From: Candidatus Lokiarchaeum ossiferum
GTDB lineage: Archaea > Asgardarchaeota > Lokiarchaeia > Sigyniarchaeales > Promethearchaeaceae
Assembly (NCBI GenBank): GCA_025839675.1
Contig: CP104013.1
Location: forward strand, 5,610,001-5,642,000
Direction of reading: 5' to 3'
DNA length: 32,000 bases
Of the stretch, positions 9,651 to 32,000 are shown piece after piece (within the stretch, counting starts at the first letter, position 1; every line of letters begins with the position of its first letter). A model generated the notes under the pieces. It saw only the letters and a list, made by a program, of their open reading frames with translations, did not search any database and was not told where the DNA came from. The translations under genes were made by a program, and so were the position numbers.

Positions 9651-10055
9651 TTAATTTTGTGTGCTCGCAGAGTATAATAATTCTGATCTTTGTTCACTTT
9701 TGAGTAAATTTCTTGATATATCCTGAGTATTAGTTTTTCCTGGTAATAATTCAAAGAGTGTCTCGATAATAGCTGCTTTTATTATATTATCTTCGATCAA
9801 TTCTTTGGAATTCAAGTGTTTAAGTCGCTTTACGTGGATTCTTGTATAACTTGAAATTTCCTTATGCATCCGTGTAAATTCGTTAATTAAATAAATTAAG
9901 AAATCATCTTCTTCCAATATTCCTTTGCTAAGCTGGGATACTTTCTCTCGAAGTTCTGCTCGATTCTTCTTTATGGTCTTTGAGATCTGAGATTCCAGCT
10001 CTAAACAATCTTGCTCTGTCATAAACTTGACCTTGAAAGATATTAAAAAAATCAA
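9651..10055 (-). CDS. Hypothetical small helical/coiled-coil protein
   Basis: 134-aa ORF wedged between radA and the RecA-fold paralogue. The listed start overlaps the radA stop by 4 nt, and an alternative start is MTEQD at about 10022. No motif recognised. Confidence 0.5.
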   Translation of the reverse strand: MIFLISFKVKFMTEQDCLELESQISKTIKKNRAELREKVSQLSKGILEEDDFLIYLINEFTRMHKEISSYTRIHVKRLKHLNSKELIEDNIIKAAIIETLFELLPGKTNTQDISRNLLKSEQRSELLYSASTQN

Positions 10056-11212
10056 GCTAAGGGATCTGCAATTCCTTTAGCCTTTTTCGCTTGCGATTTT
10101 TTTGTTGCGGGTTTCCTTGATGTGCTTTTTTTTTTTTTGGAAGACGTGCTTTTCTTTACTTTCACTGGGTCTTTTTCCAGCTTTTCAGTGGCGATTAATA
10201 AGTTCTCTTCTTCGTTCAAATCCGCAAGTGTCTTAAGTTCGCCTTCTTCCATGTATGTAATCGTTTCATCGTCGCTTATCCCCGCTTCTGTAATGTAAAA
10301 TACAGCAGATTCAGGTGGTAAATCCGGAGCATCAACGACTGTTGCAGTCCGTTCTAAACTCGAATTTGATTGAAATCCTTTTGTTTTAAAAACTATTCTG
10401 AAATGGCATCCATGGGCAACAATATTTCCTCCGATTGCTTCGTTTGACGCAAAGGAGCCTTTCATTTGAACCCCAACTTGATTGGTGACTAATACTGCTA
10501 TATTATGTGTCTCCGCAATTCTCGATAGATCATGAATCAATTTGTTCAAAACTTGTTGACGGGCAGCAAGCATCCCAATTCCGATGTATTCTGATCTCAT
10601 TAGAGCCATTAGCGAGTCAACAATAATGAGTTTCGCATTTTTCTCTTTTATTGCTTGTTCTGCCGCTCTTATCATTTGGAGTTGGTGATCCGTGGAAAAA
10701 ATCCTTGCGTGGTAGATATTTTGAAGTGTAGATGTAGGATCCAACCCAAAACGTTTAGAAATCCGTTCTACTTTAGTCCGTGAAAAAGTATTCTCCGTAT
10801 CAATGAATAAAACTGAGCCATCCAAACCGCCTTTTGATTTTGGGAGTTGACAAGTGACACACAAAGTATGGGATAGGTTCGTTTTTCCGCTTTTGAATGC
10901 TCCATAGACTTCAGTAATGCGACCAGTGGAGATTCCCCCATTCAAAATATTATCAAAATTTTGACTGCCTGTAGTACAATATTCAAAATTTTCTTCAATC
11001 GTTGATACTTGCTTAAATGTCGCCAGATTAAGACTGTCTCTTGCATTCCAGACTAAATTTTTGGATGCTTTTGCAGAGATTCCGTCAATTTCTTCTAAAT
11101 CTTTAGGTACACTCATAGCTAGAGCTTCAAGTGAATCGATACCAGATTCGGTGAGTAGTTTGATTTGACGGGGTTTGATGGATTTTAGAGCTAATAATTC
11201 CAATTTAATCAA
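10052..11212 (-). CDS. radA: RadA/Rad51-family recombinase with an extra C-terminal acidic-then-lysine-rich tail
   Basis: N-terminal HhH region (IKLLTESGIDSLEALAMSVPKDLEEIDGISAKAS), Walker A GAFKSGKT, HTLCVTCQLP, VLFIDTENTF, Walker B LIIVDSLMAL, VLVTNQV and ITEAGI are all present. The only in-frame start is TTG at 11212, with a stop two codons upstream. Confidence 0.95.
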   Translation of the reverse strand: MIKLELLALKSIKPRQIKLLTESGIDSLEALAMSVPKDLEEIDGISAKASKNLVWNARDSLNLATFKQVSTIEENFEYCTTGSQNFDNILNGGISTGRITEVYGAFKSGKTNLSHTLCVTCQLPKSKGGLDGSVLFIDTENTFSRTKVERISKRFGLDPTSTLQNIYHARIFSTDHQLQMIRAAEQAIKEKNAKLIIVDSLMALMRSEYIGIGMLAARQQVLNKLIHDLSRIAETHNIAVLVTNQVGVQMKGSFASNEAIGGNIVAHGCHFRIVFKTKGFQSNSSLERTATVVDAPDLPPESAVFYITEAGISDDETITYMEEGELKTLADLNEEENLLIATEKLEKDPVKVKKSTSSKKKKSTSRKPATKKSQAKKAKGIADPLA

Positions 11213-18981: not shown

Positions 18982-20232
18982 TTGATTTTAAATAATTTAA
19001 TCAAAAAAAAGTGTATGAAAAATGCTAAATTGATTTATCTCACATTCCCATTCCTCTGTTTTCTTTTGATAAATTGCCTCGATATAGTCGATAATAATCC
19101 TATGGGACAAATTGAAGAAGTAACTGTGTTGTCCGCTTCTACCACCTTGTATGATTCTGTGGAATTGTTTCGCCCCCCTCAAACATCTCAGATTTTCAAT
19201 GTTTCCTTCATCAAGAATGTAACTTATTTCTTTTTTATGGAATCCTATGTGCCCTTCGCTGATGATTTTTCAGTTAATATTTATTGTACCAGCCCATCAG
19301 CCCGGCAGTATCACTTTTTCGATTATACAGCTGATATTGAAAACAATGCTTCAAAAATTTTCTTTGAGTTTGGATCGACTGAAACTGGCGTTTATAGCAT
19401 ACGTTATGATGTACTAACTACTGCGAACATAAATCTGCATCTTTACTTGGAAGAATATCTCTCAATTGACACATACTATGAGAAATTTTCAACGGATTTA
19501 ATTAATCGGAATATTTTGTTCTTTAGCAGTATTGATCGTTTTAGTACCAATCAACTCAGCCATACATATGAGATGTCCTTTCAGGAAGATACAGAATATC
19601 ATTTCAATTTCTTCCGTGTCAACCCCATTTCACTCACTGATATTGAGGTAAATGGATTCACTAATCCTCAGGTTTCAATGCAAGTAGAATTGAATGGTAC
19701 GCAATATATTTTTTATCCTTCTGTACCGACGCTTGAATATGCACTTTATTCAAATATAGAAAACTTAACTCATATAGGTAATCCAAATGAGCGGAATTTG
19801 TATAATAACTCCTTTTTGATTCGGTTTGGGGCTCATATCACTGGAAATGCTACGATAACTCTCACATTAAGTGATTACAACGGGTTTGATCTAAATTTTG
19901 CCTTCGTTGCATATGGGATTGGAGATATTGGAGATGGGCCTGATACTATTGGTGATAAGCAAGACCATAATAATAATTTCATAAATGTGACAATTATTGA
20001 TGATTTAATGGCTCCTAATGCAACCGATCTTCAAGAAGTCGATCCCACCGTAGATGATAAAATAAATTATGCTTTGGGAGAAGTTGAAAATTTTCTGGAA
20101 GCTCAATTTTGGATACTTCTTCCTAGCGTACTAGGGGCCGCAGGAGTTTTTTATGCCATATCCCATTTTAAACCAAACTTGAAAGTCCAAACCCAAGTTA
20201 TCCCTGATGGAAGGGAAATTTTGGAGGATTAA
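18982..20232 (+). CDS. Secreted N-glycosylation-rich protein with a C-terminal TM anchor
   Basis: Signal-like LIYLTFPFLCFLLINC, with the likely start at MKNAKL, about 19016. Sequons include NVS, NVT, NAS, NGT, NLT, NNS, NAT and NVT. The C-terminal TM is FWILLPSVLGAAGVFYAI, followed by a cytoplasmic tail. Confidence 0.75.
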   Translation: MILNNLIKKKCMKNAKLIYLTFPFLCFLLINCLDIVDNNPMGQIEEVTVLSASTTLYDSVELFRPPQTSQIFNVSFIKNVTYFFFMESYVPFADDFSVNIYCTSPSARQYHFFDYTADIENNASKIFFEFGSTETGVYSIRYDVLTTANINLHLYLEEYLSIDTYYEKFSTDLINRNILFFSSIDRFSTNQLSHTYEMSFQEDTEYHFNFFRVNPISLTDIEVNGFTNPQVSMQVELNGTQYIFYPSVPTLEYALYSNIENLTHIGNPNERNLYNNSFLIRFGAHITGNATITLTLSDYNGFDLNFAFVAYGIGDIGDGPDTIGDKQDHNNNFINVTIIDDLMAPNATDLQEVDPTVDDKINYALGEVENFLEAQFWILLPSVLGAAGVFYAISHFKPNLKVQTQVIPDGREILED

Positions 20233-20235
20233 AAA

Positions 20236-21015
20236 ATGGGTTATTTCATTTATTTAGTGTTATTGTTTCCTTTGCGAAGGTTCCTTTCCAGAGTTCTTGA
20301 GTTAGTGGGCCATTTCATTCCTCCCTTATTAACAATCAGCTTGAAACTGGATCAATTTTCTACAATTTTTCACGAAATATGTCACTATGGGATGAATAAA
20401 CTTATGTTCATACCAGTATCCTTGGAAGATATTTCTTTTTCCGATAATTTACAAAGTGGATCTGTGAGAATCAACTATGATACCGCAACTCATTATCGAT
20501 TTTCTTTGATGAAGTGTTTTCTTATTTCTCTTGCGCCATTATTTATCGGGACTTGGATAGTTTTATTTTTGGTGAGCAAATGGGATGGAACATCCCTTGG
20601 GGGGAAAATTGGGCTTGGACTCGCCATTTGTTGTCTCATACTTGGATTACAGCCTTCAAATGCAGATATCAAATGCATTTACATTTATGGGGTAACAAAA
20701 AGACCATGGCTTGCCTTACGACAAGTAATCTGTATGGGGCTGGCCTCTTTGTTTTATTTGTGGCAAGCTGATTTTTTCATGCAATTCTATGTTTTAGTTC
20801 CAATTCTATTTGAAATTACAGTGATTTTAGCAATTTTTATTCTGTTAGATCTAATATGTTATGGATTAGATGAAGTTCTCCGTTTTCTGAAGAATAGAAC
20901 AATACAAATGACGTTCAATCGAAGCTTGCATATTCGAAAATATAAAATACCTCTCTTTGCAAAACCTGTCATAAAGCAAAGTAGAATGAATAATTTGCAG
21001 GAGAACTCGCAATGA
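20236..21015 (+). CDS. Polytopic membrane protein with an HExxH motif (DUF3267/M50B-like putative zincin peptidase)
   Basis: HEICH is encoded at 20371-20385, just after the first hydrophobic segment. About five TM helices are present. The gene starts 3 nt after the upstream stop and overlaps the downstream gene by ATGA. Confidence 0.65.
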   Translation: MGYFIYLVLLFPLRRFLSRVLELVGHFIPPLLTISLKLDQFSTIFHEICHYGMNKLMFIPVSLEDISFSDNLQSGSVRINYDTATHYRFSLMKCFLISLAPLFIGTWIVLFLVSKWDGTSLGGKIGLGLAICCLILGLQPSNADIKCIYIYGVTKRPWLALRQVICMGLASLFYLWQADFFMQFYVLVPILFEITVILAIFILLDLICYGLDEVLRFLKNRTIQMTFNRSLHIRKYKIPLFAKPVIKQSRMNNLQENSQ

Positions 21016-21779
21016 GTCAAGTTTATTATCCGAGGTGGAAACTTCCTTGGAATTTACCCACTTTTTCCGTACAATTACCTTTTCTTGCAATGAAATTGAA
21101 CTGTCGGGTGATAAATTATCGCTCCGATGAAACCTTTCATTTACACTACTTGAAAGAAAAGATGCTAGTAGTCGAGATTAGTCCTACCTGCGGTGTTCTC
21201 ATTATTGATCCGCAAGCGTTACCCTTGGAATTTAGTGAGATCCCTATTTTTAAAGATCGAATTGAAGCATTCATGGAAGAATATTCTTTTTCTTTAGTGA
21301 TATGGCAAGGATACCAAAATTCTTTAACTCAAATGGCAAAAAATCTTCCCAAAATTGCTTTAGCCTTGCGCGGGATGTTAATGCGTCATGTTCTTACCTA
21401 TCACCAAGCCATGATTCCTACTCGTCATTTAGAAGATACCGCCTTATGTCTACGAAGTTTAGCAAAACGAGTCCAGATTGTTGATAATCCTCCATCAAAC
21501 TCACGAATAAAAGCCAAAGCACGAAGGTTGTATGATGCACAGCAGACATTAATAGAAGGGTTTTGCCTTATGGGATTAAAAAAATTTAAGCTTTTAAGTA
21601 CCGAGTTTCAATTTCCTTTTGAAATCATGGAAGAAATACGTTCTTCAGAGCTACTATACACACGCACGGGGAATCCCAAAGGTATAACTGGAAGATTAAA
21701 GAATATCAAGTTATTTGATTTTGAATTCATTCGCCAAAATCAGATATTACTAACTAAAAATAATACTTTGGATAACTAG
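21012..21779 (+). CDS. Catalytically inactive XPF/ERCC4 paralogue (nuclease-like domain + HhH2-like C-terminus)
   Basis: By-eye alignment to the XPF at 5235-5969 gives three matched blocks (XPF first): IPLITTLDEFETAQTIWSFAK vs QAMIPTRHLEDTALCLRSLAK; QLNFIEGLIGVSEIKAKVLLDEFQ vs QQTLIEGFCLMGLKKFKLLSTEFQ; FGAKFVRQNQNLL vs FDFEFIRQNQILL. The catalytic positions are replaced: ERK becomes EIS at 21174-21182, DERE becomes FSVQ, and ADY becomes LHY. Confidence 0.75.
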   Translation: MSQVYYPRWKLPWNLPTFSVQLPFLAMKLNCRVINYRSDETFHLHYLKEKMLVVEISPTCGVLIIDPQALPLEFSEIPIFKDRIEAFMEEYSFSLVIWQGYQNSLTQMAKNLPKIALALRGMLMRHVLTYHQAMIPTRHLEDTALCLRSLAKRVQIVDNPPSNSRIKAKARRLYDAQQTLIEGFCLMGLKKFKLLSTEFQFPFEIMEEIRSSELLYTRTGNPKGITGRLKNIKLFDFEFIRQNQILLTKNNTLDN

Positions 21780-21863: not shown

Positions 21864-24800
21864 CTAAATTGTGACTGCAAAATCTTCCAAAGCTTCTATA
21901 AGTGCTTCTATTTTTTTAGAATCTGATATAGCCAAATGATTGATTAAAATTTGTCTATCTTTTAATAAAAATTGTATAGATCGAGCTTCAGGGATTGAAT
22001 CGAGCGAGGAAATTCCGAGCTGCCATTGATTCTTTAAATAGTCAATTGCTTGACTCCTTTCTTGATCTTGTAGCTTAGAACGTGTTTCAACCAAAAGATC
22101 AATTAAAAAGGAACGCAATTCATTTTGCCAAGCATAACTTTCTAAAGTTAAGGATGGTGAAGGAAGGGTGTCTTTAGAACTAAAAGATTTTTCAAAATAG
22201 GTTTTAACATCTGAATTATGCTCTTTAGAATCCATTCTTTCTGTTACAGATGAGCCTATAGGTATTCCATCATTTGAAATCAAAATTTTTAACTCTTCAG
22301 GATCCAAAATTTTTGTCCGACTTGAAGAAACACGCTGCAATTTTGTAAATTTTTTAAAATCCTTTAAACATTTCTCTGCTTTTGAGGACAGAATATATCC
22401 AGTTATTTCAATGTTAGAATTTGCTTGATGAGTTTTTTTAATAAAATACTTTCGATTAATTAAATCTTCGAGAATGGATGCAGTTTTTTCTTTCCGATGT
22501 TTTACATCTATTGGGTAAAAATTTCTCAAGGTACTATCAATAATACTTTCTAGATCTTCGAGTAAGGTGTGTTTTGGAATGACTTTGGAAATAGTTAGAC
22601 TCTTAGCACAATCATTTAAAAAAATATGAAGATCATTATGTAAAGAAGGTTGATTGCTAAATTCTATGGTCAAAGACGTAACCAAAGGTGGATTTTCGGG
22701 TTCAGCAGGTGCAACAATCTTCGAAAATTGGAGATGTGAAGGAATGTTTTGTGGGAGTATGAAATTTAATCTTTCTGTGTCGGTATCAAGCTGATCAAAT
22801 TGAAAAACATAGGATTTCTGATATAATGTTCGATATATGATGCCTTTATTAAGATCTAAAGAAGTCAAATATTGATATTGATAACTGGATTGCCTCGCGG
22901 ATTTTTGGGATGTATTGGTAAATTGCCCATCAAATTTCAATAAAGATCCCAGTAAACGTCGATGATTATATTGAGCTGTTCGCAAGGCGATAATTGTATC
23001 AAAATTAGCGTGGATGGATTCATGAATTTCTGCACATTGACAAGATTCTGCTAAGATTGGCATTTGTAGTGCTAAAAATTCTGCAAACATTTCATCTATG
23101 GTTGTATGGTTCCGTTTGTCTATCCGGTTATTAAATATTAAGTGTAAATGAGGAAGCATGATCACTTTAGGAAGAATTGAGGCTTCATTGGTATAATCGC
23201 TAAGTAAAAATTGTAACTGGGTTAGAAATACCTGAATAAACAAATTTTTATATTTATTCACCTTTAACCGAGAAAGATCCAAGATGAAAGGTGAAGCCGA
23301 TTCTATAAATGTGAGTGGATTAAGAGAGACACTCATGTCTCGATCAAAAGCTATAAAATATTGCTGAGCTTTGAATAAATTCATCATGGTAAACACTTCA
23401 CTTTTGTGTAAGGTTGCAGGAGATTTATCGAAAAAGGCTTCAATCCGTTCAACTATTAACGATAAATCTGCTTTTCCAGACTCATTTTTCGTTATCCATG
23501 CACTGCGTAAAATAGATATTTGATCATTATTCCAATGAAATATTCGCCCGAAAATATCCAAAACCTTTTCAATGTAAGAGATTAAATCTTCTCCAGCCTC
23601 CGTTATTGGAAGATCAAAGAGTTTCAATCCAAAATCATTACCGACTTCTAAATACTGAATTGGGTTTGATTCATTATCTGAAGCTGAACCTAATCGAGAT
23701 TTCCAAGTACCATCCCAATCAAAAATGATTGCGGGGATATTATGTTTTAATAATTCCTTAATTATACGAATTGAAATGATTGTGTTTTGACGGTGATTAT
23801 CTCCTGCTAGCAAAATATTTCCCCATAGTTCAGCAATATTTATCCCTCCTTCACTTTCTAACGTGAAATTTTCTGGATTAAAAGTACTTCCCAAAAAAAT
23901 TTCATCGTTAAGATAGGGTGTGGAAAATTCTCCAGCATAATACATAGGAAGCACCCGATGAATTTCTTCTGGAATCATTATCAACTCCGATAATTGGATC
24001 CCAGCGGCACAAAATAAAAATAAAGGTGATGAATAAGATCCCCATCGTCGATTTTTACAAATAGATTGGAAGAAGACTTTTGAAGACACTTGTTTTATCT
24101 CACAAGAAGGATGAGCTAAGTTTAAAATCTGAAGGTATTGTTCCTGTGCAAAGATTTTCTTAATATAAAATTCTTTACCAAAATCTTCGATTTTTTCCAG
24201 AGGCATTTCTGTGGCTAAAGTAAATTGATTTTGAAAACGATAAAAGCCACAATATTCGCGTTCTAATGTTTTACGTTTACCTGGAATTTTTTCAAAGAGT
24301 GCATAATCCTTATCTTGTAAAAAGTCTCGAAATTCTGCAATCATTTCATTGGGAGTAACCCGATCTAAAAAATATTGATGGCTGAAGGATGTAGATGTAT
24401 TATTAAAATTGTTCATTAAAGCTCGATATAGTTTTGTGTTATTTTGATGGTAGGCTCGGTTTAGCTGACGCATGGAAAAATGCTGACGACATGTAATAGT
24501 GTTTCGTTCAGGAGTGTGGATCCAAACATCTCCATCTGGATCTAAATAAAGAAGTTCATTAGTTGGAAAAAGATCGATGGGTAAATAAGAATGAATTGAT
24601 TTTTGAGTCCGAAAATAAAAGGTAGCGCGGAACCGTGCAATCATATTGATCAGAGTAAATAAAACCATTCCCACGACTCCATAAATTACGTATGGGATTG
24701 TGGAAAACAAAAGCATGCCAACATATCCCACAAGGCTTAAATTGAAAAGCAAAGGAAAATAATGTCTGATTAAGTATTTTAAGCCCTTTATCGGGGATAA

Positions 24801-25658
24801 TGTTTCAGTAAATTCATAATCTTCTGGTAAAACTTCTTCTTGACTCCAAGCACTTTTAATACTTCTGATTAAATCTATACCCTGAAGCATTTCAAAGTGA
24901 TAATGGGGAAAATTTACCTCAATGATATCTTGAATACACAAAGCAATAAGTTTCATTTTCGAGACAAGATTGGAAACCATTTTGTTTGAAATATTTTTAA
25001 CTTTGCGAGTAAAAAAGATGCGATAATTTAGTTTTGTTTGTTTTCCTATTGTATCTGGAATTTGCGATGTCTGAAATATCGTGGAAGTAGTTTTTTCCTC
25101 CGAGTTGGAAAAATCGACTTGGAAAGTTAAGGGTGCAACTTCTTTCAATTCAGCAACTTTCCGTAAAAAATCGTTAAAATTGGCTTGAATATGGAATGGT
25201 ACTGCTTTGAGTTCAACACCCATCGTAGCTATAGCATGGTTATTGTGCATATTTTGGAGAATTAGCATATTACTTTTATTAAAAAAATCTTTTTTATCTC
25301 GGTTGGGGGGTTGAAACATGGCTTCTGACATATAATTCAAACAGCTTAGACTCGCTACCATAGATTTTGTATCGATCTGTTTGATTCCTGTCTTTTTGTG
25401 GAAAAAAGTTCGCATTTGAAGGGAAGGATCATATGAGAAATACACAAGATTTATCCCAAAGCAGATCGAAAAACCAATAGAGATATTTGTTCTGTTCTCA
25501 ATGTCCCCAAAAATGAAAGCTAATGTAGCCCATCCTGTCAAAAATCCCATTAGGATGAAATACTTCCATAAATTTTGCTTAAGGCTCACTTTGAAGTGAT
25601 CCAGTTTAAATAACATATCATATTTGAAAATTTGTTTAGGTCCTGGGGAATGATCCAT
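21864..25658 (-). CDS. 1264-aa membrane-anchored HerA/FtsK-superfamily (DUF87-like) P-loop-fold protein with degenerate Walker A and B
   Basis: Four N-terminal TM helices are present (e.g. FILMGFLTGWATLAFIF, VGYVGMLLFSTIPYVIYGVVGMVLFTLI). The central region follows the HerA order. NILLAGDNHRQNTIISIRIIKELL takes the place of hhG-TGSGKS (nt 23781-23804). AIIFDWDGTW resembles vliFDphGEY. PFILDLSRL resembles the v-iDLS strand. KVIMLPHLHLIF takes the place of hhh-EEAH (nt 23133-23165). SCQCAEIHESIHANFDTIIALRT is sensor-like. The CDS call is firm, while the fold assignment is tentative. Confidence 0.6.
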   Translation of the reverse strand: MDHSPGPKQIFKYDMLFKLDHFKVSLKQNLWKYFILMGFLTGWATLAFIFGDIENRTNISIGFSICFGINLVYFSYDPSLQMRTFFHKKTGIKQIDTKSMVASLSCLNYMSEAMFQPPNRDKKDFFNKSNMLILQNMHNNHAIATMGVELKAVPFHIQANFNDFLRKVAELKEVAPLTFQVDFSNSEEKTTSTIFQTSQIPDTIGKQTKLNYRIFFTRKVKNISNKMVSNLVSKMKLIALCIQDIIEVNFPHYHFEMLQGIDLIRSIKSAWSQEEVLPEDYEFTETLSPIKGLKYLIRHYFPLLFNLSLVGYVGMLLFSTIPYVIYGVVGMVLFTLINMIARFRATFYFRTQKSIHSYLPIDLFPTNELLYLDPDGDVWIHTPERNTITCRQHFSMRQLNRAYHQNNTKLYRALMNNFNNTSTSFSHQYFLDRVTPNEMIAEFRDFLQDKDYALFEKIPGKRKTLEREYCGFYRFQNQFTLATEMPLEKIEDFGKEFYIKKIFAQEQYLQILNLAHPSCEIKQVSSKVFFQSICKNRRWGSYSSPLFLFCAAGIQLSELIMIPEEIHRVLPMYYAGEFSTPYLNDEIFLGSTFNPENFTLESEGGINIAELWGNILLAGDNHRQNTIISIRIIKELLKHNIPAIIFDWDGTWKSRLGSASDNESNPIQYLEVGNDFGLKLFDLPITEAGEDLISYIEKVLDIFGRIFHWNNDQISILRSAWITKNESGKADLSLIVERIEAFFDKSPATLHKSEVFTMMNLFKAQQYFIAFDRDMSVSLNPLTFIESASPFILDLSRLKVNKYKNLFIQVFLTQLQFLLSDYTNEASILPKVIMLPHLHLIFNNRIDKRNHTTIDEMFAEFLALQMPILAESCQCAEIHESIHANFDTIIALRTAQYNHRRLLGSLLKFDGQFTNTSQKSARQSSYQYQYLTSLDLNKGIIYRTLYQKSYVFQFDQLDTDTERLNFILPQNIPSHLQFSKIVAPAEPENPPLVTSLTIEFSNQPSLHNDLHIFLNDCAKSLTISKVIPKHTLLEDLESIIDSTLRNFYPIDVKHRKEKTASILEDLINRKYFIKKTHQANSNIEITGYILSSKAEKCLKDFKKFTKLQRVSSSRTKILDPEELKILISNDGIPIGSSVTERMDSKEHNSDVKTYFEKSFSSKDTLPSPSLTLESYAWQNELRSFLIDLLVETRSKLQDQERSQAIDYLKNQWQLGISSLDSIPEARSIQFLLKDRQILINHLAISDSKKIEALIEALEDFAVTI

Positions 25659-25753: not shown

Positions 25754-26830
25754 ATGGCATCAGAAACAATTTATTCAGAAAAACGAAATGCTATGAATTC
25801 AGTTGAAGCGGATAGTTATTCTCTAGTTGATTGTAAACCAGAAAATATTGTATGTAAGGATATTGAAAATGGGTTTGATTCCAAAAAAACCGATACTACA
25901 TTGATTTTAGCCGCAGAAAAACAACTTCGTCAGATTCTACAAAAGAGTAATTTTCACGAATTTTTTTCTAATGCTTTACCCATTTCAATAGATCTAGAAT
26001 GTTTTGATCTAGTTTATTATCGAAAATTCATAGATTCTGCAAATCCTAAAGATGAACTTTTTATCCTGCTGTGTATTTCGTATTATTCAGAATCTCATCA
26101 ATTTTCTTCCCGCAATTTGACTTCTTTTAAACCAAGTGCTCATCCTCCCAATATTATTTCATACTCCGTAAATATCTGCTTAAATTCCACTGATTTATAT
26201 GTGGGAAATAACCTAGATGAATCACTTCGCTCACAAATTTTTACTGGATCAATGATAGAATTTAAGAAATTTATCTTTATTCTTTCCTACATCTCTCGAC
26301 ATCACCTACGTACTAAAGCAAATTCAAAAAAGGAAATTCGAGATTCACAATCAAAACCTAAATTAATTAAGTTTTCTTGGTATGGAATATATGGACTCTC
26401 ATTTTTTTTATTATTACTTGGTTTTCTTTCCATTTCAAAATGGTTTAATCCCGTTTTTAACTATGGTTTTATTCTTTTTGCCATATATTTTACTGGAATC
26501 TTGTTTTGTTTCAAGTATATATTACCAAAAAAGATTTTAAAGGACTCTGAATGGAGATTTAACCACTATTCTAAACAAGTTGCAAAATTAATTTTCCATT
26601 CTATAAGAGATAAAGAGGTTAAAGCTATCTTTAATAAAATGTTTTTAAGCAGCATTAATCATCCTGCTACAATTGATCAAAAACCAAAAAATTACTCTCG
26701 AAATATTCAGAAACGTCCCTTCAGCGAAGAAAACGAAATTGCTAAAAAAACAATAAGAATTTCATCCAAAAAGGAGGATACCGAAAAGAAAACTGATAAA
26801 AAACAAATTATTGCCGATTTTTTTAATTAA
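25754..26830 (+). CDS. Hypothetical membrane protein (soluble N-domain, TM hairpin, Lys-rich C-tail)
   Basis: 358-aa ORF with TM helices YGLSFFLLLLGFLSI and YGFILFAIYFTGILFCF. No motif recognised. Confidence 0.65.
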   Translation: MASETIYSEKRNAMNSVEADSYSLVDCKPENIVCKDIENGFDSKKTDTTLILAAEKQLRQILQKSNFHEFFSNALPISIDLECFDLVYYRKFIDSANPKDELFILLCISYYSESHQFSSRNLTSFKPSAHPPNIISYSVNICLNSTDLYVGNNLDESLRSQIFTGSMIEFKKFIFILSYISRHHLRTKANSKKEIRDSQSKPKLIKFSWYGIYGLSFFLLLLGFLSISKWFNPVFNYGFILFAIYFTGILFCFKYILPKKILKDSEWRFNHYSKQVAKLIFHSIRDKEVKAIFNKMFLSSINHPATIDQKPKNYSRNIQKRPFSEENEIAKKTIRISSKKEDTEKKTDKKQIIADFFN

Positions 26831-26875: not shown

Positions 26876-27262
26876 TCATTCTAAGAACTCTTCTTTTGCT
26901 TCTGCTAAAGCTTCACAAGTACTTCTCTGTGAACAAGTAAAACAAGGTCCCATTGTCCAAAAGTAGGTTTTTTTGGATTGAGATCGAAAGGTTCCAGTTT
27001 TTATGTATTGTTTTGGGATTACTGCTAATAGCTGAATATGACTATGAGGTTGAGGTTCAAGTCCCTTTCTACTAGGAATTGGTTTTGGACAAAATAAGGC
27101 AGTTATTTCCAAATTGCCTTTTTTGGGAATTCCATATCCAAACTGGGCAGGACAACACTCATTTATGCATTTTGCCATCCGAGAACGTGATTGTGTTCGA
27201 AAAACAAACATTTCATCTCCACAATACGGACAATCACCTATATTCAATTCAGTACTTATCAT
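26876..27262 (-). CDS. Zinc-finger protein with a topoisomerase-I-type C4 zinc ribbon
   Basis: CPYCGDEMFVFRTQSRSRMAKCINECCP resembles the zf-C4_Topoisom pattern CPxCG-x(n)-C-x(2-4)-C. A second Cys cluster is CFTCSQRSTC. The gene lies 11 nt downstream of the preceding ORF. Confidence 0.6.
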   Translation of the reverse strand: MISTELNIGDCPYCGDEMFVFRTQSRSRMAKCINECCPAQFGYGIPKKGNLEITALFCPKPIPSRKGLEPQPHSHIQLLAVIPKQYIKTGTFRSQSKKTYFWTMGPCFTCSQRSTCEALAEAKEEFLE

Positions 27263-27273
27263 TTGTTTTCCTC

Positions 27274-27597
27274 CTAAAAGGGATTACTCCATTTTTTGAT
27301 TAGCTGACCAAAAGTATCTTGATCGCGCTTTATTTCAATAGAACTGGCGGATTCACTCCCCCTAACTTTAAATCCAGCATCAATGTAAACAACTAAGCAA
27401 TGAACAGGGTTGCCATGAATAATAACATGTGGGAAAGGAAAGTGTGTTTGTTTCTCTAAATCTTGTTGTTCTATTCCAAATTTCAACATTTCCCCACATT
27501 GGGGACATAATTGCATAAATTTCCCTGATTTTTTAATTTCTTGGGAACGTTCAAAAGATCGTGATGTTGTGTTGGATAAATTAGTTTGACTGATCAT
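27274..27597 (-). CDS. Small CxxC/His-containing putative zinc-binding protein
   Basis: MQLCPQCGEML...HVIIHGNPVHCLVVYID. The probable start is the internal MQLC. It lies 35 nt downstream of the helicase stop on the same strand. Confidence 0.5.
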   Translation of the reverse strand: MISQTNLSNTTSRSFERSQEIKKSGKFMQLCPQCGEMLKFGIEQQDLEKQTHFPFPHVIIHGNPVHCLVVYIDAGFKVRGSESASSIEIKRDQDTFGQLIKKWSNPF

Positions 27598-27632: not shown

Positions 27633-29783
27633 TCAAAAGTGATCTTTGGCAAATTTCTTAAGAATCGTCCGGATTTTAATATGTAAAGTTGCAATATCCT
27701 TGAATAAAACTAAGTTGATCTGCAGCAAATCTCTAAACTCTTTAACTCTCTGTGCCAATAATTTCTGTTCTTCAGGTAGAATATTAGAAATATCTAAAAA
27801 TATTAAATATTTGTTCACAGAAATCTGTTTATTTTTAATACTTTTCAAAAATAAAAAATTATTTGCATCAATTTCAATTTCCGAGGCATTTAGGATGTCG
27901 AATCCAATTTTGACTTTCTTCGCGGAAATATATATGTCAAATTCACTTGATTTTAAAATTAAACCAAAATTTAGAGATAAAGATGATTCCAACTCATAAA
28001 GATCATTCACCTCTGGGGATATTTGAATCGAATGAGTTTTATTGCTTCTAATCTTGTTTTCCTTTACTTCAGATAGTGAAGTAATTTCTTTTGAATATAA
28101 AATAGGTAATTTTCCATTTAATTTCTTAGAGACTTGTTTAGCCTTTATTTTTGAATCCAAAACTGGTTTAATCTCAAATTTTTTTTTGAATTGATCCTTT
28201 TTTCGTTTCGCAATTAAGTGATTCCGTTCATCCGATGTTCCAATAGTATAAAGATAAATTACCTTTCCTTTTCCCGATCTTCCAGTTCTACCTGCTCGTT
28301 GAATTAATTGTATTACTGATGCTGAATTATCAAAAAAGACCACTACATTGCATTCTGCAATATCAAGACCTTCTTCTGCGACATTGGTTGCAATCAATAC
28401 ATTGTATTTTCCTGATTTGAAGTCATTGGTCAATTTTATTTGATCCTTTTGTTTAAGCCCCTCATCTCCCTTTTTTGATGCTTGTCCCACAAATTTTTGT
28501 GGACGACAGTGGGGGATAGATCTAATTTTTTTAAGGATACTCTTTATAGTAGCTCGTAATTTAACAAAAATTAGAATACGACTGCTAGAATTATCTTCAA
28601 ATTGTGATTTTAAAATTGATCGCAACTGAATTATCTTTGGATGTTCCAATAATTTTGGGTTTTGATATTTTTCAATCTGTAATGCTTGGTAAATTTGTGA
28701 GATCTGTATTTCTGAACTTAAAAATCGATCAGCCATTGATGCTTTACCCTTTTGGATTTTTTCATACATTTTTTCGAGTGTATTTAGCACCACTTCCAAT
28801 CCTTGGGATTCCAGATCATTTATTAATTTAAGGATTTTCATAAGCCGTGCATTTGTAGAAATTAAAATACGAAGTTCCCTCTCATTAACGCCTTCTTTTT
28901 TTAATGCTGATGGGAGGGATTTCATTTTGTCGGCACAAAAACCTAAGTGGTATAAATTTGGGTTAGTTGGAGCAGATGAATCGTAATTTAATAGAAGTTC
29001 CATATATCCTGCCACTGTGTGATTTTTTAGTTCAACAAGGCTTGAATGAACTTTCATCATAAAAGGGCTCATCTGAACTCCAATATCAATTTCCTCTTTA
29101 TCAAAAGTGTACTGTTGTACTTCTGCGTGTTTTAGATCACGAAATTCAATATTATTCTTTGAAATGTGCAAATTTTCCATTATTTCTAACTGCTTTTTAT
29201 TAGAAGATCCAGGAGATGCGGTGAGAGCCATAATCCTTCCTTGAATATTTTCTTTAACATAATGATCCGCTATACTACAATAAGCATAATTTCCAGAAGC
29301 TCTATGCGCTTCATCAAAAATAATTAGATCTACCTTAGATAGTGTATATAACTTATTTTCGAGATCATTTCGGAGAGTTTGCGGGGTCATAAAAAGAATT
29401 TTACCAATTTTTAATTGAAAAACTTCCTGACGTTTTGTTGGCTTTATTTGCCCTGTTAGTTGCAATAATGAGATCTTTTCAGTATCGAGAATTTCAATGT
29501 GCGATTGATAATGTTGATTGATTAATGGTCGCGTAGGTGCAAGAAATATAATTGTGGGATTGGGATATGATGGATTGGTTAAAAAATGTAGCATTGTTAA
29601 AGTTCCAATAAAGGTCTTACCTAACCCCGTTGGAATAACTACCATGAGATTTTCTTTAAAGGCACGGTCAGATATTTTAATTTGATATTCACGTGGATTT
29701 ATTTTCTCGTTTTTCAAATATGGGATAAATTGAGAGTGTAATTTGGTTTTTGGATTGGTTGGAGTCAGAGCTTGTTGAATCAT
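27633..29783 (-). CDS. Hef/FANCM/Mph1-family DEAH helicase with a degenerate ERCC4-like C-terminal domain
   Basis: REYQ, motif I PTGLGKT, motif II IIFDEAHRA, motif III LTASPG, and motif V/VI VLIATNVAEEGLDI...QRAGRTGR. A long helical insertion lies between the RecA lobes, as in Hef. See the separate feature for the C-terminus. Confidence 0.9.
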   Translation of the reverse strand: MIQQALTPTNPKTKLHSQFIPYLKNEKINPREYQIKISDRAFKENLMVVIPTGLGKTFIGTLTMLHFLTNPSYPNPTIIFLAPTRPLINQHYQSHIEILDTEKISLLQLTGQIKPTKRQEVFQLKIGKILFMTPQTLRNDLENKLYTLSKVDLIIFDEAHRASGNYAYCSIADHYVKENIQGRIMALTASPGSSNKKQLEIMENLHISKNNIEFRDLKHAEVQQYTFDKEEIDIGVQMSPFMMKVHSSLVELKNHTVAGYMELLLNYDSSAPTNPNLYHLGFCADKMKSLPSALKKEGVNERELRILISTNARLMKILKLINDLESQGLEVVLNTLEKMYEKIQKGKASMADRFLSSEIQISQIYQALQIEKYQNPKLLEHPKIIQLRSILKSQFEDNSSSRILIFVKLRATIKSILKKIRSIPHCRPQKFVGQASKKGDEGLKQKDQIKLTNDFKSGKYNVLIATNVAEEGLDIAECNVVVFFDNSASVIQLIQRAGRTGRSGKGKVIYLYTIGTSDERNHLIAKRKKDQFKKKFEIKPVLDSKIKAKQVSKKLNGKLPILYSKEITSLSEVKENKIRSNKTHSIQISPEVNDLYELESSLSLNFGLILKSSEFDIYISAKKVKIGFDILNASEIEIDANNFLFLKSIKNKQISVNKYLIFLDISNILPEEQKLLAQRVKEFRDLLQINLVLFKDIATLHIKIRTILKKFAKDHF
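27636..28028 (-). other. ERCC4-nuclease-like domain lacking catalytic residues (C-terminus of the Hef/FANCM-like helicase)
   Basis: I threaded this by eye on the Pyrococcus Hef nuclease domain as I remember it. IQISPEV sits against VVVDSRE. SEFDIYIS sits against VGDYIIS. VKIGFDILNASEI sits against VAIERKSANDFIQSI. NKYLIFLDIS sits against RPIMIVEGS. INLVLFKDIATLHIKIRTILKK sits against VPIIFSSTPEETAQYIFLIAKR. No HhH2 follows. Confidence 0.5.
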
Positions 29784-29857: not shown

Positions 29858-32000
29858 ATGGAAAGGAAACCAAATACATTTCCAAGATTTGATCCGATTG
29901 CATTAGAAGGTAAAACTCTAAGACCTAAGCAAAAGAAAGCTTTTACTTTACTTGAACAAGGTCAAAACGTTGTTGCAAATTTCGAGATGGGATATGGTAA
30001 GACCTTCCTAGCTTTAAAGTTAGCACAACTAATGAAAGATAAAGGAAAAAAATTTATAATGGGTGTCCCCCTTCGGGCCGTCGCTTCACAAATGTTTGAT
30101 GTTTTTTTTAAATATTTTAATGTTCTAATTGTTTCAGGGGATCACGTTGAAAATAAAACAAAAATCCTAGATCCTGATTTTGACGGCTATATTATGACAT
30201 ATGAAATGATGCTTCAATATTTAATCAAAGAACGGCAACGTCAGATATTATTTGACAATATTGGCGCATTCATTATCGATGAGGTTCATATTATGGTTTC
30301 AGGAAGACGGGGTGCCACAATTGAATCGAATATCATGCTTGTTCAATATTTTTATCCTCACATCCAACAGTTATTATTATCGGCTACAATTCAAAATAGC
30401 AAGGAATTTGCAACACATTTTAAATGTTGCCTTGTAAAAACAATTCCTGAAGAACGTCCTGTTAAACTTATTAAAAAAATAATCACTCGTCCTGTTTTTT
30501 CAAGAATGGATGAGGAATATGAACAAATCACTGAAGATATTAAAGAAATAATCATAAAACATACTACTCCTTCTGCAAATTTTCCTGGAATGCTCGTATT
30601 TTGTAATGCTCGGTTACTTTCAAAAAAGCTTGCTAGCGAGCTAAACAAACACTTTTCTCACATCCAAGCAGAATATCACAATGCCTCACTTAGTTTGAAA
30701 AAGCGAAAGGCTGTTGAGCAAGCTTTTTCAAATCAAGATATTAATGTTATTTGTTGTACTCCGACTTTGGCAATGGGAATAAACCTTCCCTCAGCAATTT
30801 GTGTTCTTACAAGTGTTCGTCGTCGTTCTGGTCTTCTAAATGAAAAAATATTTCTCGATTCTAATGAAATCATCCAAATGGCCGGAAGGGCTGGTCGTCC
30901 GGGTCAAAAAGGTAATCTCATCAAAACCAAAAATGGAATTACTCAAGAATACGGGATTTCTTATACTATGTGTGAATATACCGACTATGAGGAAGTAGAG
31001 ATTATGATCAATACTCCAGTTAAAATTTGCAGTCAAATTCCAGACTTCATGAAATGGATGTTATTAACATGGATTGTGGCCGGGATATCTCAAAAAGTAA
31101 AATTAAAAAAAATTTACTCTCAAATTTTTGTATCATCGGTTGATTTCATTAAATTTAAGCAAGAATTCTCTTGGTTGGTTGAAAAAAACTTCATTTCTGT
31201 TGATCCGATGGGCCAAATCATTGCGAGTCATAAAGCTCGCATGACTGCTTTCTTTGGAATTAAGTGTGAAACTGCTTTACATTTTCAGTATATTCGGGAA
31301 TGTTTGAAACAAGAATTTTGGGCTGGAAAAATAAAATCGATACATCCAGCAACACTTTTTTGTTTACTTTTAGCATGTGAAGAATTTACTTCGAATATAA
31401 GAACGTCTGAGAAAAATGATATTGCATCAATCACGACAGCCAATAATTTTTGTGATAATTCTTATATCTACCATCTTTTGGGTGAAACGAAATTCCAACG
31501 ATCACAAAATGAAGCTGTAAAAAAGGGCTTTTCTATCACTTATGATAATTATTTACAGCAGAGATATTTAGAAAACTCATCTCCTGATAAAAATGAACAA
31601 GTAATTTTCAAAAAATTTGATATTGGTGACAAAGTTCAAGTTCAGACAATTGCTGCTCGTTTATTAACTGCAGCTCATGCAATTTTGGGGACATCTTGGA
31701 TATTTGGAAAAATTTTACGAGAACTTACCGATGGTATGAGTTTTTCGATGGCATGTTTTGATTCAGATGTAATCGATCTTATGAAAATAAACAATGTTGG
31801 TCCACGAAAAGCCATATTAATCGTAGAAGCAAAAATAAAATCACGAGCACAATTTTATCGCTGTGATACACATTCACTTTATTACAGCATTAAAAAAATT
31901 GTGCATCACCGAAACGAACGGGTAAAAATTCTTCAGAATCATTTTTCCGAAAAAAGGGATTTATGGAAAAGTGTTTCCGAAAAAAGTTTGGAAAAACTTA
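29858..32000 (+). CDS. Second Ski2/Hel308/Brr2-like DEVH helicase (3' end runs off the window)
   Basis: Absent from the ORF track because there is no stop in the window. My translation from ATG 29858 begins MERKPNTFPRFDPIALEGKTLRPKQKKAF. Motif I is EMGYGKT, motif II IIDEVHIM, motif III LLSATIQ, and motif VI QMAGRAGRPGQKG. The later INNVGPRKAILIVEAKIKS is HhH-like. The frame is open for 714 codons to the window end. Confidence 0.9.
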   Translation, partial: MERKPNTFPRFDPIALEGKTLRPKQKKAFTLLEQGQNVVANFEMGYGKTFLALKLAQLMKDKGKKFIMGVPLRAVASQMFDVFFKYFNVLIVSGDHVENKTKILDPDFDGYIMTYEMMLQYLIKERQRQILFDNIGAFIIDEVHIMVSGRRGATIESNIMLVQYFYPHIQQLLLSATIQNSKEFATHFKCCLVKTIPEERPVKLIKKIITRPVFSRMDEEYEQITEDIKEIIIKHTTPSANFPGMLVFCNARLLSKKLASELNKHFSHIQAEYHNASLSLKKRKAVEQAFSNQDINVICCTPTLAMGINLPSAICVLTSVRRRSGLLNEKIFLDSNEIIQMAGRAGRPGQKGNLIKTKNGITQEYGISYTMCEYTDYEEVEIMINTPVKICSQIPDFMKWMLLTWIVAGISQKVKLKKIYSQIFVSSVDFIKFKQEFSWLVEKNFISVDPMGQIIASHKARMTAFFGIKCETALHFQYIRECLKQEFWAGKIKSIHPATLFCLLLACEEFTSNIRTSEKNDIASITTANNFCDNSYIYHLLGETKFQRSQNEAVKKGFSITYDNYLQQRYLENSSPDKNEQVIFKKFDIGDKVQVQTIAARLLTAAHAILGTSWIFGKILRELTDGMSFSMACFDSDVIDLMKINNVGPRKAILIVEAKIKSRAQFYRCDTHSLYYSIKKIVHHRNERVKILQNHFSEKRDLWKSVSEKSLEKL

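What the first reader, a model, noticed from the sequence alone, without database searches (positions are those of the whole stretch)
27636..28028. Hef-type helicase whose C-terminal ERCC4 module looks inactivated, a FANCM-like architecture
Seen in sequence: the 716-aa DEAH helicase has all Hef/FANCM/Mph1 helicase motifs. Its last 130 aa or so thread onto the ERCC4 nuclease topology with every catalytic position substituted. IQISPE replaces VDSRE, FDIY replaces GDY, and IGFD replaces IERK. No HhH2 follows. Established knowledge: euryarchaeal Hef couples this helicase to an active XPF nuclease. Eukaryotic FANCM keeps only a degenerate ERCC4 domain, which it uses to dimerise with the pseudo-nuclease FAAP24. 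Inference: this protein resembles the FANCM state rather than the Hef state, and a free-standing pseudo-nuclease is encoded 6 kb away. The domain assignment is from a by-eye threading against a remembered sequence and is the weakest link.
Basis: partly seen in the sequence, partly recalled or inferred. Interest (0 to 1): 0.7.

Follow-up and report, generated by a model that had tools for sequence, protein, structure and literature searches.

The report
Asgard Hef helicase with dead nuclease
A DNA-repair helicase of the Asgard archaeon Lokiarchaeum ossiferum ends in a domain folded like the XPF/Hef nuclease but lacking its key catalytic residues and DNA-binding tail, which resembles the arrangement in the human Fanconi anaemia protein FANCM.

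Summary
The ORF at 27633..29783 (- strand, 716 aa) is identical to a Ca. Lokiarchaeum ossiferum protein annotated "SrmB". Its helicase core is Hef/FANCM-type: the best PDB matches are Pyrococcus Hef helicase (2e-76) and FANCM (2e-61).

No sequence method recognises the last ~133 aa. An AlphaFold2 model (pLDDT 90.6) has the ERCC4 strand and helix order. The top 47 Foldseek PDB hits are all XPF-superfamily, and the first is the Hef nuclease domain.

The GDXnERKX3D motif is degraded to FD..DIL...E. The Arg and Lys are hydrophobic in all 112 homologues, and the acidic positions are not conserved. No (HhH)2 domain follows.

This domain occurs in Hef-like helicases from several Asgard lineages. A profile search of 1.84 billion proteins found only 70 matches.

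The 21012..21779 product is a catalytic-motif-less XPF paralogue that keeps its (HhH)2 domain.

The most likely role is a fork-remodelling translocase with a non-catalytic dimerisation or docking domain, with cleavage supplied in trans.

The FANCM resemblance is architectural only. FANCM keeps (HhH)2 and a near-intact motif, and the helicase core is no closer to FANCM than Pyrococcus Hef is.

The parts
27633..29783 (-). Whole gene: 716-aa Hef-family helicase with a C-terminal pseudo-nuclease domain
   Evidence: ORF. It is 100% identical and fully covered by an L. ossiferum protein on a 6.03-Mb contig.
28194..29717 (-). Hef/FANCM-type SF2 helicase core (aa 23-530): two RecA-like domains plus an inserted helical domain
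   Evidence: phmmer against PDB: 1wp9 Pfu Hef helicase 2e-76 over aa 23-530, FANCM 9el5 2e-61. Pfam DEAD, Helicase_C and ResIII, with a weak RNA_helicase_helical hit.
28035..28193 (-). Lys-rich linker (aa 531-583), probably disordered
   Evidence: 28% K/R. The start of the model has low pLDDT. In 94 more distant Asgard homologues the equivalent linker carries a PIP-box-like QxxLxx[FY][IFL] motif that is absent here.
27636..28034 (-). ERCC4/XPF-fold pseudo-nuclease domain (aa 584-716), without (HhH)2
   Evidence: AF2 pLDDT 90.6. The top 47 Foldseek PDB hits are all XPF superfamily, and the first is the Hef nuclease domain. No Pfam, PDB-HMM or hhalign sequence signal.
28011..28028 (-). IQISPE (aa 586-591): strand 1, equivalent to V-D-x-R-E. 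The Asp position is Ile and the Arg position is Pro.
   Evidence: Strand 1 in the model. The residue mapping is by order of secondary-structure elements and is an inference. E591 is not conserved: 8 of 18 close homologues have Q.
27930..27941 (-). FDIY (aa 615-618): start of strand 3, equivalent to GDY. The Asp is kept here.
   Evidence: for the position. D616 is D in 11 of 18 close homologues. The equivalent position is D in only 40% of the wider family.
27879..27908 (-). IGFDILNASE (aa 626-635): strand 4, equivalent to G-I-E-R-K-x3-D. E becomes D629, R becomes I630, K becomes L631, and D becomes E635.
   Evidence: Register from hhalign, which is not statistically significant, and from the model. 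Position 629 is D in 13 of 18 close homologues and Q or H in 89 of 94 wider ones. Positions 630 and 631 are hydrophobic or aromatic throughout.
27792..27809 (-). YLIFLD (aa 659-664): strand 5, with the family's best-conserved residues, F662 and D664
   Evidence: F is nearly invariant in A1. D/E occupies 16/18 and 80/94 positions. It aligns with the invariant Glu of XPF 'LIILE'.
21012..21779 (+). Free-standing XPF paralogue without the catalytic motif, with a retained (HhH)2-like C-terminus (candidate partner)
   Evidence: BLASTP against the window XPF 4e-11. hhalign against Asgard XPFs 98.7%, E 1.9e-16. The alignment shows that the DxRE, GDY and ERKxxxD motifs are absent. AF2 pLDDT 87.4. Foldseek: ApeXPF 2e-6, Hef nuclease TM 0.77-0.79, FAAP24.
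5235..5969 (-). Canonical short XPF nuclease (244 aa) with MDERE / ADY / ERKRGDD motifs plus (HhH)2 (candidate nuclease acting in trans)
   Evidence: Pfam ERCC4 2.1e-20. Sequence. Annotated '3'-flap repair endonuclease Xpf'. Invariant motif residues are shown in A2.
26876..27597 (-). Two small Zn-ribbon ORFs (107 aa and 128 aa) immediately downstream, conserved next to the Hef-like gene
   Evidence: Homologues flank the Hef-like gene in L002, a relative at 42% identity, in a different order (tblastn 7e-31 and 1e-31). They are also present in L007. No Pfam or PDB hit.

Best explanation
The gene encodes a Hef-family SF2 DNA translocase, the archaeal counterpart of FANCM/Mph1, which acts on stalled forks and branched DNA. 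Its C-terminal nuclease domain has become a pseudo-nuclease. The domain keeps the ERCC4 (XPF) fold but has lost the Arg and Lys of the ERK triad, the strand-1 Asp and the whole (HhH)2 module.

The motor most likely still remodels forks. The dead ERCC4 domain most likely serves as a dimerisation or partner-docking module, as ERCC4 domains do in every known XPF-family member. DNA cleavage, where needed, is left to separately encoded XPF-family proteins: the canonical short XPF in this window, possibly together with the pseudo-XPF.

Shown: the helicase family, the fold, the absence of the catalytic basic residues and of (HhH)2, conservation of the domain across Asgard lineages, and the co-encoded XPF and pseudo-XPF.

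Inferred: the descent of the domain from a Hef-type nuclease, the loss of activity, the dimerisation or docking role, and cleavage in trans.
For: Helicase: 1wp9 Hef 2e-76 and FANCM 2e-61, with all SF2 motifs present.

Fold: AF2 pLDDT 90.6 and pTM 0.83 with the ERCC4 element order. The top 47 Foldseek hits are exclusively XPF superfamily (Hef nuclease, ERCC1, ApeXPF, FANCM-FAAP24, Mus81-Eme1, Zip2-Spo16). The domain sits at the same place in the architecture as the Hef nuclease domain.

Inactivation: the positions equivalent to R and K of ERK are hydrophobic in 18/18 close and 94/94 wider homologues. The position equivalent to E is D/A/N/I/H or Q/H.

Maintenance: the domain family gives 59 hits at E<=1e-10 and 24 at E<=1e-30, essentially all at the C-termini of Hef-like helicases. 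It has strongly conserved non-catalytic positions, so it is under selection and not decaying.

XPF-family biology: members are homodimers in archaea and heterodimers with a non-catalytic subunit in eukaryotes (PMC3905867).

Nuclease in trans: a canonical XPF lies in the window. An active-looking XPF lies 5 kb from the Hef-like gene in another Asgard MAG.
Against: No sequence-based method links the domain to ERCC4: Pfam gives nothing at E<=1, a PDB profile search gives nothing at E<=10, and hhalign gives 0.3% probability. Homology therefore rests on predicted structure and position in the architecture.

The residue mapping was not obtained from a real superposition. L. ossiferum keeps D616, D629, E635 and D664, so a metal site is not formally excluded.

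Without (HhH)2, the main dimerisation and dsDNA-binding module of XPF-family proteins, dimerisation through the ERCC4 domain alone is unproven. No complex prediction could be run. There is no experimental evidence.
Confidence: 0.72

Rival explanations
1. FANCM-FAAP24-type arrangement: the dead ERCC4 domain forms an obligate heterodimer with the free-standing pseudo-XPF (21012..21779), which supplies the missing (HhH)2 DNA-binding module.
For: The pseudo-XPF is real, keeps an (HhH)2-like C-terminus and matches FAAP24 and ApeXPF structurally. It lies 6 kb away, and the arrangement is syntenic in a relative at 81% identity (L007). The Hef-like protein lacks (HhH)2, so complementation is attractive.
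Against: The pseudo-XPF has only about five orthologues, all close Lokiarchaeum relatives. The dead Hef domain is found across several Asgard lineages, so it predates the pseudo-XPF. P. syntrophicum and other loci have no such neighbour. A more obvious partner for a pseudo-XPF is the active XPF, as in XPF-ERCC1. No complex prediction was possible.
Confidence: 0.18
2. The domain is still a nuclease with a non-canonical active site built from D616, D629, E635 and D664.
For: In this protein and its closest relatives, acidic residues sit at the GDY-Asp, ERK-Glu and x3-Asp equivalents. D664 is conserved family-wide.
Against: The catalytic Lys and the Arg are hydrophobic everywhere. D629 is Ala in P. 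syntrophicum, Ile, Asn or His in others, and Gln or His in 89 of 94 wider homologues. D616 and E635 are variable. FANCM, with a much more complete motif (CDXnERRX3E), is already inactive (PMC3905867).
Confidence: 0.07
3. The C-terminal domain is an unrelated restriction-endonuclease-like (PD-(D/E)XK) or other alpha/beta domain acquired independently. It is not a degenerate descendant of the Hef nuclease domain.
For: There is no detectable sequence similarity to ERCC4. The profile search found no bridge to ERCC4-containing proteins.
Against: No other PD-(D/E)XK family appears among the 47 best structural matches. The best match is the Hef nuclease domain itself. The domain follows a Hef helicase and a basic linker exactly as in Hef. 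The strand-5 acidic residue is retained, and strands 4 to 6 align in register.
Confidence: 0.06
4. It is an RNA helicase, as annotated (SrmB) or like RIG-I/Dicer, and the C-terminal domain binds RNA.
For: The NCBI name is 'ATP-dependent RNA helicase SrmB'. RIG-I, MDA5 and Dicer helicases are the next-best PDB matches at about 1e-37.
Against: Hef (261 bits) and FANCM (211 bits) score far above RIG-I (130 bits). The C-terminal fold belongs to DNA-repair XPF-family proteins. The neighbourhood holds RadA, XPF and Hel308-like helicases.
Confidence: 0.05

Closest known systems
Euryarchaeal Hef (Pyrococcus furiosus; helicase 1WP9, nuclease 1J23/1J24)
   Same: The same helicase family gives the best PDB hit, 34% identity over about 500 aa for this protein and up to 43% for other Asgard members. 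The order is the same: helicase, basic linker, ERCC4-fold domain. The Hef nuclease domain is the best structural match for the C-terminus.
   Different: Hef has an active GDXnERKX3D nuclease followed by (HhH)2. Here the Arg, the Lys and the strand-1 Asp are lost, no (HhH)2 exists, and Pfam ERCC4 is not detectable. Hef was described as specific to Euryarchaeota (PMC7776575), whereas this family is from Asgard archaea.
Eukaryotic FANCM (with FAAP24; 4BXO, 4M6W, 9HJO)
   Same: A Hef-type translocase whose C-terminal ERCC4 domain is catalytically dead. An XPF-family pseudo-nuclease is encoded separately in the same genome. FANCM and FAAP24 chains are among the structural hits.
   Different: FANCM keeps (HhH)2 and a near-complete CDXnERRX3E motif (PMC3905867), and it is about 2000 aa long with extra partner-binding regions. 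The Asgard helicase core is not closer to FANCM than Pfu Hef is (FANCM fragments: 250 bits to Pfu Hef against 235-253 bits to Asgard proteins). Pairing with the pseudo-XPF is untested.
ERCC1 central domain, Eme1, FAAP24, Zip2-Spo16 (non-catalytic XPF-family subunits)
   Same: An ERCC4 fold without the catalytic motif, used for partner or DNA docking. The ERCC1 central domain is the second-best structural hit.
   Different: Those are separate subunits of eukaryotic heterodimers and, apart from the isolated ERCC1 central domain construct, carry (HhH)2 or equivalent modules. Here the dead domain is fused to a helicase and lacks (HhH)2.
Short archaeal XPF (Aeropyrum pernix / Sulfolobus type)
   Same: The window's own XPF (5235..5969) is of this type: an ERCC4 domain with an intact motif plus (HhH)2, and no helicase.
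   Different: It is a separate gene. The finding's domain shares only the fold with it (hhalign 0.3%).

Membership tests
Hef/FANCM/Mph1 SF2 helicases (COG1111 'ERCC4-related helicase') | SF2 motifs I, Ia, II (DEAH), III, V and VI | tested here: met
   PTGLGKT, LAPTRPL, DEAH, TASPG, motif V and QRAGRTGR located. Pfam DEAD 1.4e-25 and Helicase_C 1.3e-24.
Hef/FANCM/Mph1 SF2 helicases (COG1111 'ERCC4-related helicase') | End-to-end similarity of the core, including the inserted helical domain, to a solved Hef or FANCM helicase, scoring above other SF2 families | tested here: met
   1wp9 at 2e-76 over aa 23-530 and FANCM at 2e-61, against RIG-I at 7e-37.
XPF/ERCC4 superfamily (fold level) | ERCC4 alpha/beta fold (six-stranded sheet, b-a-b-b-b-a-b-a-b-a) | tested here: met
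   AF2 pLDDT 90.6. The top 47 Foldseek PDB hits are all XPF superfamily, TM up to 0.73. This rests on a predicted structure, not a solved one.
XPF/ERCC4 superfamily (sequence level, Pfam PF02732) | A significant match to the ERCC4 profile or to ERCC4 proteins | tested here: not met
   No Pfam hit at E<=1. PDB profile search empty at E<=10. hhalign against Asgard XPFs gives 0.3% probability. None of the 10 profile hits scanned carries ERCC4.
Catalytic XPF-family nucleases (Hef nuclease, XPF, Mus81) | GDXnERKX3D active-site motif (PMC3905867) | tested here: not met
   The motif reads FD..DIL...E in this protein. The R and K positions are hydrophobic in all 112 homologues, and the acidic positions are variable. 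The register is inferred, not taken from a superposition.
XPF family, canonical architecture | A tandem (HhH)2 domain after the ERCC4 domain | tested here: not met
   The protein ends at aa 716 with the last helix of the ERCC4 fold. No HHH Pfam hit. The downstream ORFs are Zn-ribbon proteins with no HhH match.
FANCM (eukaryotic orthologue group) | Helicase core specifically related to FANCM rather than to archaeal Hef | tested here: inconclusive
   BLAST bit scores only. FANCM fragments score 144+106 against Pfu Hef and 137+98 to 128+125 against Asgard proteins. No proper phylogeny could be built.
FANCM (eukaryotic orthologue group) | Heterodimer with a FAAP24-like pseudo-nuclease through the ERCC4 and (HhH)2 domains | not testable with these tools
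   A candidate exists at 21012..21779. No multimer prediction is available, and the Hef-like protein has no (HhH)2.
FANCM (eukaryotic orthologue group) | MHF1/2-binding and MM1/MM2 partner motifs in a long middle region | not tested
   The linker is only about 53 aa. No reference motifs were available for comparison.

The most novel reading that the evidence does not exclude
Asgard archaea already operate an asymmetric, eukaryote-style XPF-family system. A Hef/FANCM-type translocase carries a dead ERCC4 domain that heterodimerises with a stand-alone XPF-family subunit, either the active XPF or, in Lokiarchaeum, the pseudo-XPF. If so, the split between 'motor with pseudo-nuclease' and 'separate nuclease', and the use of non-catalytic XPF-family partners (FANCM-FAAP24, XPF-ERCC1, Mus81-Eme1), would predate eukaryotes.
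Probability: 0.2. Interest if true: 0.8.

Novelty: new variant of a known kind. Interest (0 to 1): 0.6.

Why it matters
A 2020 review states that Hef is specific to Euryarchaeota and that other archaea have only a short XPF (PMC7776575). Here an Asgard archaeon has both a short canonical XPF and a Hef-family helicase whose nuclease domain is retained as a dead fold. That dead domain is conserved in Hef-like helicases labelled Lokiarchaeota, Heimdallarchaeota, Hodarchaeota and Hermodarchaeota.

This is the only prokaryotic parallel found here to the FANCM condition of an active motor with a pseudo-nuclease. It occurs in the archaeal group closest to eukaryotes. It makes two questions testable: when and how often the Hef/FANCM nuclease was inactivated, and what a pseudo-ERCC4 domain does without (HhH)2.

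The case also shows a whole domain family that sequence annotation misses. Pfam gives no hit, and the protein is mislabelled as the RNA helicase SrmB.

The caveat is that FANCM retains more ancestral features than the Asgard protein. The inactivation is therefore probably parallel or ongoing rather than directly ancestral.

Tried and rejected
1. Sequence routes to ERCC4 all failed. Pfam at E<=1, an HMM of 44 C-termini against PDB sequences at E<=10, and hhalign against 31 Asgard XPFs in local and global modes gave nothing significant. These alignments were used only as a register hint.

2. The profile search of 1.84e9 representatives found no bridge to ERCC4-bearing proteins. All 70 hits are Hef-like C-termini or fragments.

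With the single protein, the one genome-contig scan returned only an unrelated bacterial helicase, so no taxonomic census was obtained from that route.

5. A multimer prediction with the 21012..21779 product or the XPF could not be run.

6. I checked whether the Hef-like gene is regularly adjacent to XPF-family genes. It is not adjacent in L002, L003, L004 or L006. It is within about 5-6 kb only in the window, L007 and L005.

7. I checked whether the helicase core is closer to FANCM than to Hef. Bit scores give no signal for this.

8. Five literature searches found no description of an Asgard Hef pseudo-nuclease. Absence from this library is not proof of absence.

9. The antisense ORF at 27646..27999 (+, 117 aa) lies inside the gene and was dismissed as spurious.
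Full report
**1. What is at the coordinates**

The finding (27636..28028) is the C-terminal 131 residues (aa 586-716) of a 716-aa ORF on the minus strand, 27633..29783. The protein is 100% identical over its full length to a protein of Candidatus Lokiarchaeum ossiferum, on a 6.03-Mb contig. NCBI names it "ATP-dependent RNA helicase SrmB". The window has about 31-35% G+C throughout.

**2. The helicase**

Pfam finds DEAD (aa 33-195), Helicase_C (387-504), ResIII and a weak helical-bundle hit (301-351). All SF2 motifs are present: PTGLGKT, LAPTRPL, DEAH, TASPG, motif V and QRAGRTGR.

Against PDB sequences the best match is the Pyrococcus furiosus Hef helicase 1wp9 (2e-76, aa 23-530). FANCM follows (9el5, 2e-61). 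RIG-I, MDA5 and Dicer are well behind at about 1e-37 or weaker.

**3. The C-terminal domain**

Sequence methods see nothing in this region:
- Pfam finds no family even at E<=1.
- A profile of 44 homologous C-termini (alignment A1) has no PDB sequence hit at E<=10.
- Profile-profile comparison with 31 Asgard XPF nucleases is not significant (0.3% probability).

Structure prediction is clear. AlphaFold2 on A1 gives mean pLDDT 90.6 and pTM 0.83. The element order is b1 (aa 584-588), a1, b2, b3 (617-620), b4 (625-632), a2, b5 (658-664), a3, b6 (690-694), a4 (697-715). This is the order of the ERCC4 nuclease domain.

Foldseek against 350,542 PDB chains returns 47 consecutive hits that are all XPF-superfamily domains. 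The first is the Hef nuclease domain itself (1j24, E 6e-5, TM 0.69/0.73). Next come the ERCC1 central domain, Aeropyrum XPF, FANCM-FAAP24, Mus81-Eme1 and Zip2-Spo16. No other restriction-endonuclease-like family intrudes.

The fold match, together with the domain's position after a Hef helicase and a basic linker, makes descent from a Hef-type nuclease domain the most economical reading. The protein ends with the last helix of this fold, so there is no (HhH)2 domain.

**4. Catalytic positions**

Catalytic XPF-family members carry GDXnERKX3D. FANCM has CDXnERRX3E and FAAP24 has PDXnLYVX3D, and both are inactive (PMC3905867).

I mapped the positions by the one-to-one order of secondary-structure elements and by the hhalign register for strands 4 to 6. 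That register is not statistically significant but is self-consistent: GFDIL aligns with GIERK, and YLIFLD with LIILEN. On this mapping the L. ossiferum domain reads FD(616)...D(629)-I(630)-L(631)...E(635), and strand 1 reads I-Q-I-S-P-E in place of (I/V)-x-D-x-R-E.

The Arg, the Lys and the strand-1 Asp are therefore gone. Three acidic positions persist in this particular protein.

Conservation decides the question:
- The R and K equivalents are hydrophobic or aromatic in all 18 close and all 94 more distant homologues.
- The Glu equivalent is D in 13 of 18 close homologues. It is Ala in both Promethearchaeum syntrophicum entries, and Asn, Ile or His in others. It is Gln or His in 89 of 94 distant homologues.
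- D616 and E635 are variable.

**5. Distribution**

All of the 120 best full-length homologues are Asgard proteins of about 680-770 aa, plus fragments. Their source labels include Promethearchaeota/Lokiarchaeota, Heimdallarchaeota, Hodarchaeota and Hermodarchaeota. None has a precomputed ERCC4 Pfam domain.

A profile of the domain searched against 1.84 billion representative proteins finds only 70 matches (59 at E<=1e-10). They are C-termini of Hef-like helicases or short fragments, and no ERCC4-bearing protein is among those scanned. The domain family is therefore narrow, old within Asgard archaea, and tied to this helicase.

In BLAST terms the helicase core is about equally distant from FANCM as Pyrococcus Hef is. 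FANCM fragments score 144+106 bits against Hef and 137+98 to 128+125 bits against Asgard proteins. There is no evidence for a specific FANCM affinity.

**6. Other XPF-family genes in the window**

Two are present.

(a) The gene at 5235..5969 (-) encodes a 244-aa canonical short XPF. Pfam ERCC4 scores 2.1e-20, and the motifs MDERE, ADY and ERKRGDD plus (HhH)2 are present. It is annotated "3'-flap repair endonuclease Xpf". It lies downstream of a Hel308-like helicase, an ATPase and RadA.

- BLASTP against the window XPF gives 4e-11 over the (HhH)2-like part.
- hhalign against the XPF alignment gives 98.7%, E 1.9e-16 over aa 119-249.
- The multiple alignment shows that DxRE, GDY and ERKxxxD are all absent.
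- The AF2 model has pLDDT 87.4.
- Foldseek's best hits are Aeropyrum XPF (2e-6), the Hef nuclease domain (TM 0.77-0.79) and FAAP24.

It has only about five orthologues, all close Lokiarchaeum relatives. The next hits are active-looking XPFs. It is therefore a recent degenerate paralogue and much younger than the dead Hef domain. It may pair with the Hef-like protein, but pairing with the active XPF, as in XPF-ERCC1, is at least as plausible. Neither could be tested.

**7. Mechanism**

The best-supported reading is as follows. The protein is a fork- or branch-point translocase of the Hef/FANCM family. Hef acts at stalled forks and binds PCNA (PMC7776575).

Its former nuclease domain now serves as a non-catalytic dimerisation or docking module. 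Incision is delegated to the separately encoded XPF. XPF-family proteins are homodimers in archaea and heterodimers with a non-catalytic subunit in eukaryotes (PMC3905867).

The absence of (HhH)2, which normally contributes both dimerisation and duplex binding, is the main oddity. It is also the main reason the mechanistic part remains an inference.

**8. Comparison and novelty**

[quoted passage not shown] Here an Asgard lineage has a short XPF and, in addition, a Hef-family helicase with a dead ERCC4 domain.

Five full-text searches found no description of this. The protein meets the helicase criteria of the Hef/FANCM family and the fold criterion of the XPF superfamily. It fails the catalytic-motif and (HhH)2 criteria. 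I file it as a new variant of a known kind.

It is analogous to FANCM but is not shown to be its direct forerunner. FANCM keeps (HhH)2 and a nearly intact motif, so the Asgard state is more derived in those respects.

**9. Side observations**

- Two small Zn-ribbon ORFs follow the gene, and their homologues flank it in relatives.
- In the wider Asgard family the next gene is a DUF1922 Zn-ribbon protein.
- The wider family's linker has a PIP-box-like QxxLxx[FY][IFL] motif that is absent in this protein.
- A second Hef-like paralogue lies two genes upstream in a close relative, just outside this window.
- An active-looking XPF lies 5 kb from the Hef-like gene in another Asgard MAG, and its gene call is truncated.

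Noticed in passing
window 5235..5969 (-): A canonical short XPF nuclease (244 aa) with Pfam ERCC4 2e-20, MDERE/ADY/ERKRGDD motifs and (HhH)2. It sits at the end of a minus-strand cluster with a Hel308-like 855-aa helicase (6266..8833), a STAND-like ATPase (8830..9636) and RadA (10052..11212).
   Followed up: partly
window 21012..21779 (+): An XPF paralogue that has lost the DxRE, GDY and ERKxxxD motifs but keeps the (HhH)2-like C-terminus ('YTRTGNPKGITG'). AF2 pLDDT is 87, and Foldseek's best hits are ApeXPF, the Hef nuclease domain and FAAP24. Only about five orthologues exist, all close Lokiarchaeum relatives. It could form an XPF-ERCC1-like heterodimer with the active XPF.
   Followed up: yes
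window 27274..27597 (-) and 26876..27262 (-): Two small Zn-ribbon proteins (107 aa and 128 aa) lie directly downstream of the Hef-like gene. Their homologues flank the Hef-like gene in a relative at 42% identity, in a different order (L002 9665-9973 and 12174-12521), and are present in L007. They have no Pfam or PDB match. In more distant Asgard loci (L004, L005, L006) the gene after Hef-like is a 173-183 aa DUF1922 Zn-ribbon protein.
   Followed up: partly
homologues P0030-P0120, linker about 30-45 aa upstream of the pseudo-nuclease domain; the equivalent region in the window is about 28035..28193: The wider Asgard family has a conserved PIP-box-like motif QxxLxx[FY][IFL] in the linker (Q 84%, L 84%, F/Y 87% of 94 sequences). 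It is absent in L. ossiferum and its close relatives. This suggests PCNA binding, as reported for Hef and FANCM.
   Followed up: partly
window 29858..32000 (+); L007 4775-6946 and 7680-9932: The window ends inside a 750-aa Ski2/Hel308-like helicase that is transcribed divergently from the Hef-like gene. In the close relative L007, the next gene beyond it is a second Hef-like paralogue (723 aa, DETH box, different C-terminus). In this genome that gene would lie just outside the window.
   Followed up: partly
L005 15161-15838 (+): An active-looking XPF (VDKRE / ADY / ERKRGDD) lies 5 kb downstream of the Hef-like gene in another Asgard MAG. The public gene call is truncated to 141 aa, probably because of a non-ATG start.
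   Followed up: partly
window 21864..25658 (-), 25754..26830 (+), 18982..21015 (+): Large ORFs of 1264, 358, 416 and 259 aa lie between the Hef-like gene and the pseudo-XPF. None has a Pfam hit, and all are syntenic in the relative L007 (55-75% identity). The 259-aa and 358-aa products look like membrane proteins. Their function is unknown.
   Followed up: no
L002 (JGI contig of 197 kb) and P. syntrophicum genome: Lokiarchaeial genomes often carry two XPF paralogues, both with intact motifs. Examples are P0165 and P0172 on one contig, and P0132 and P0171 in P. syntrophicum. This hints at heteromeric XPFs in this group.
   Followed up: no
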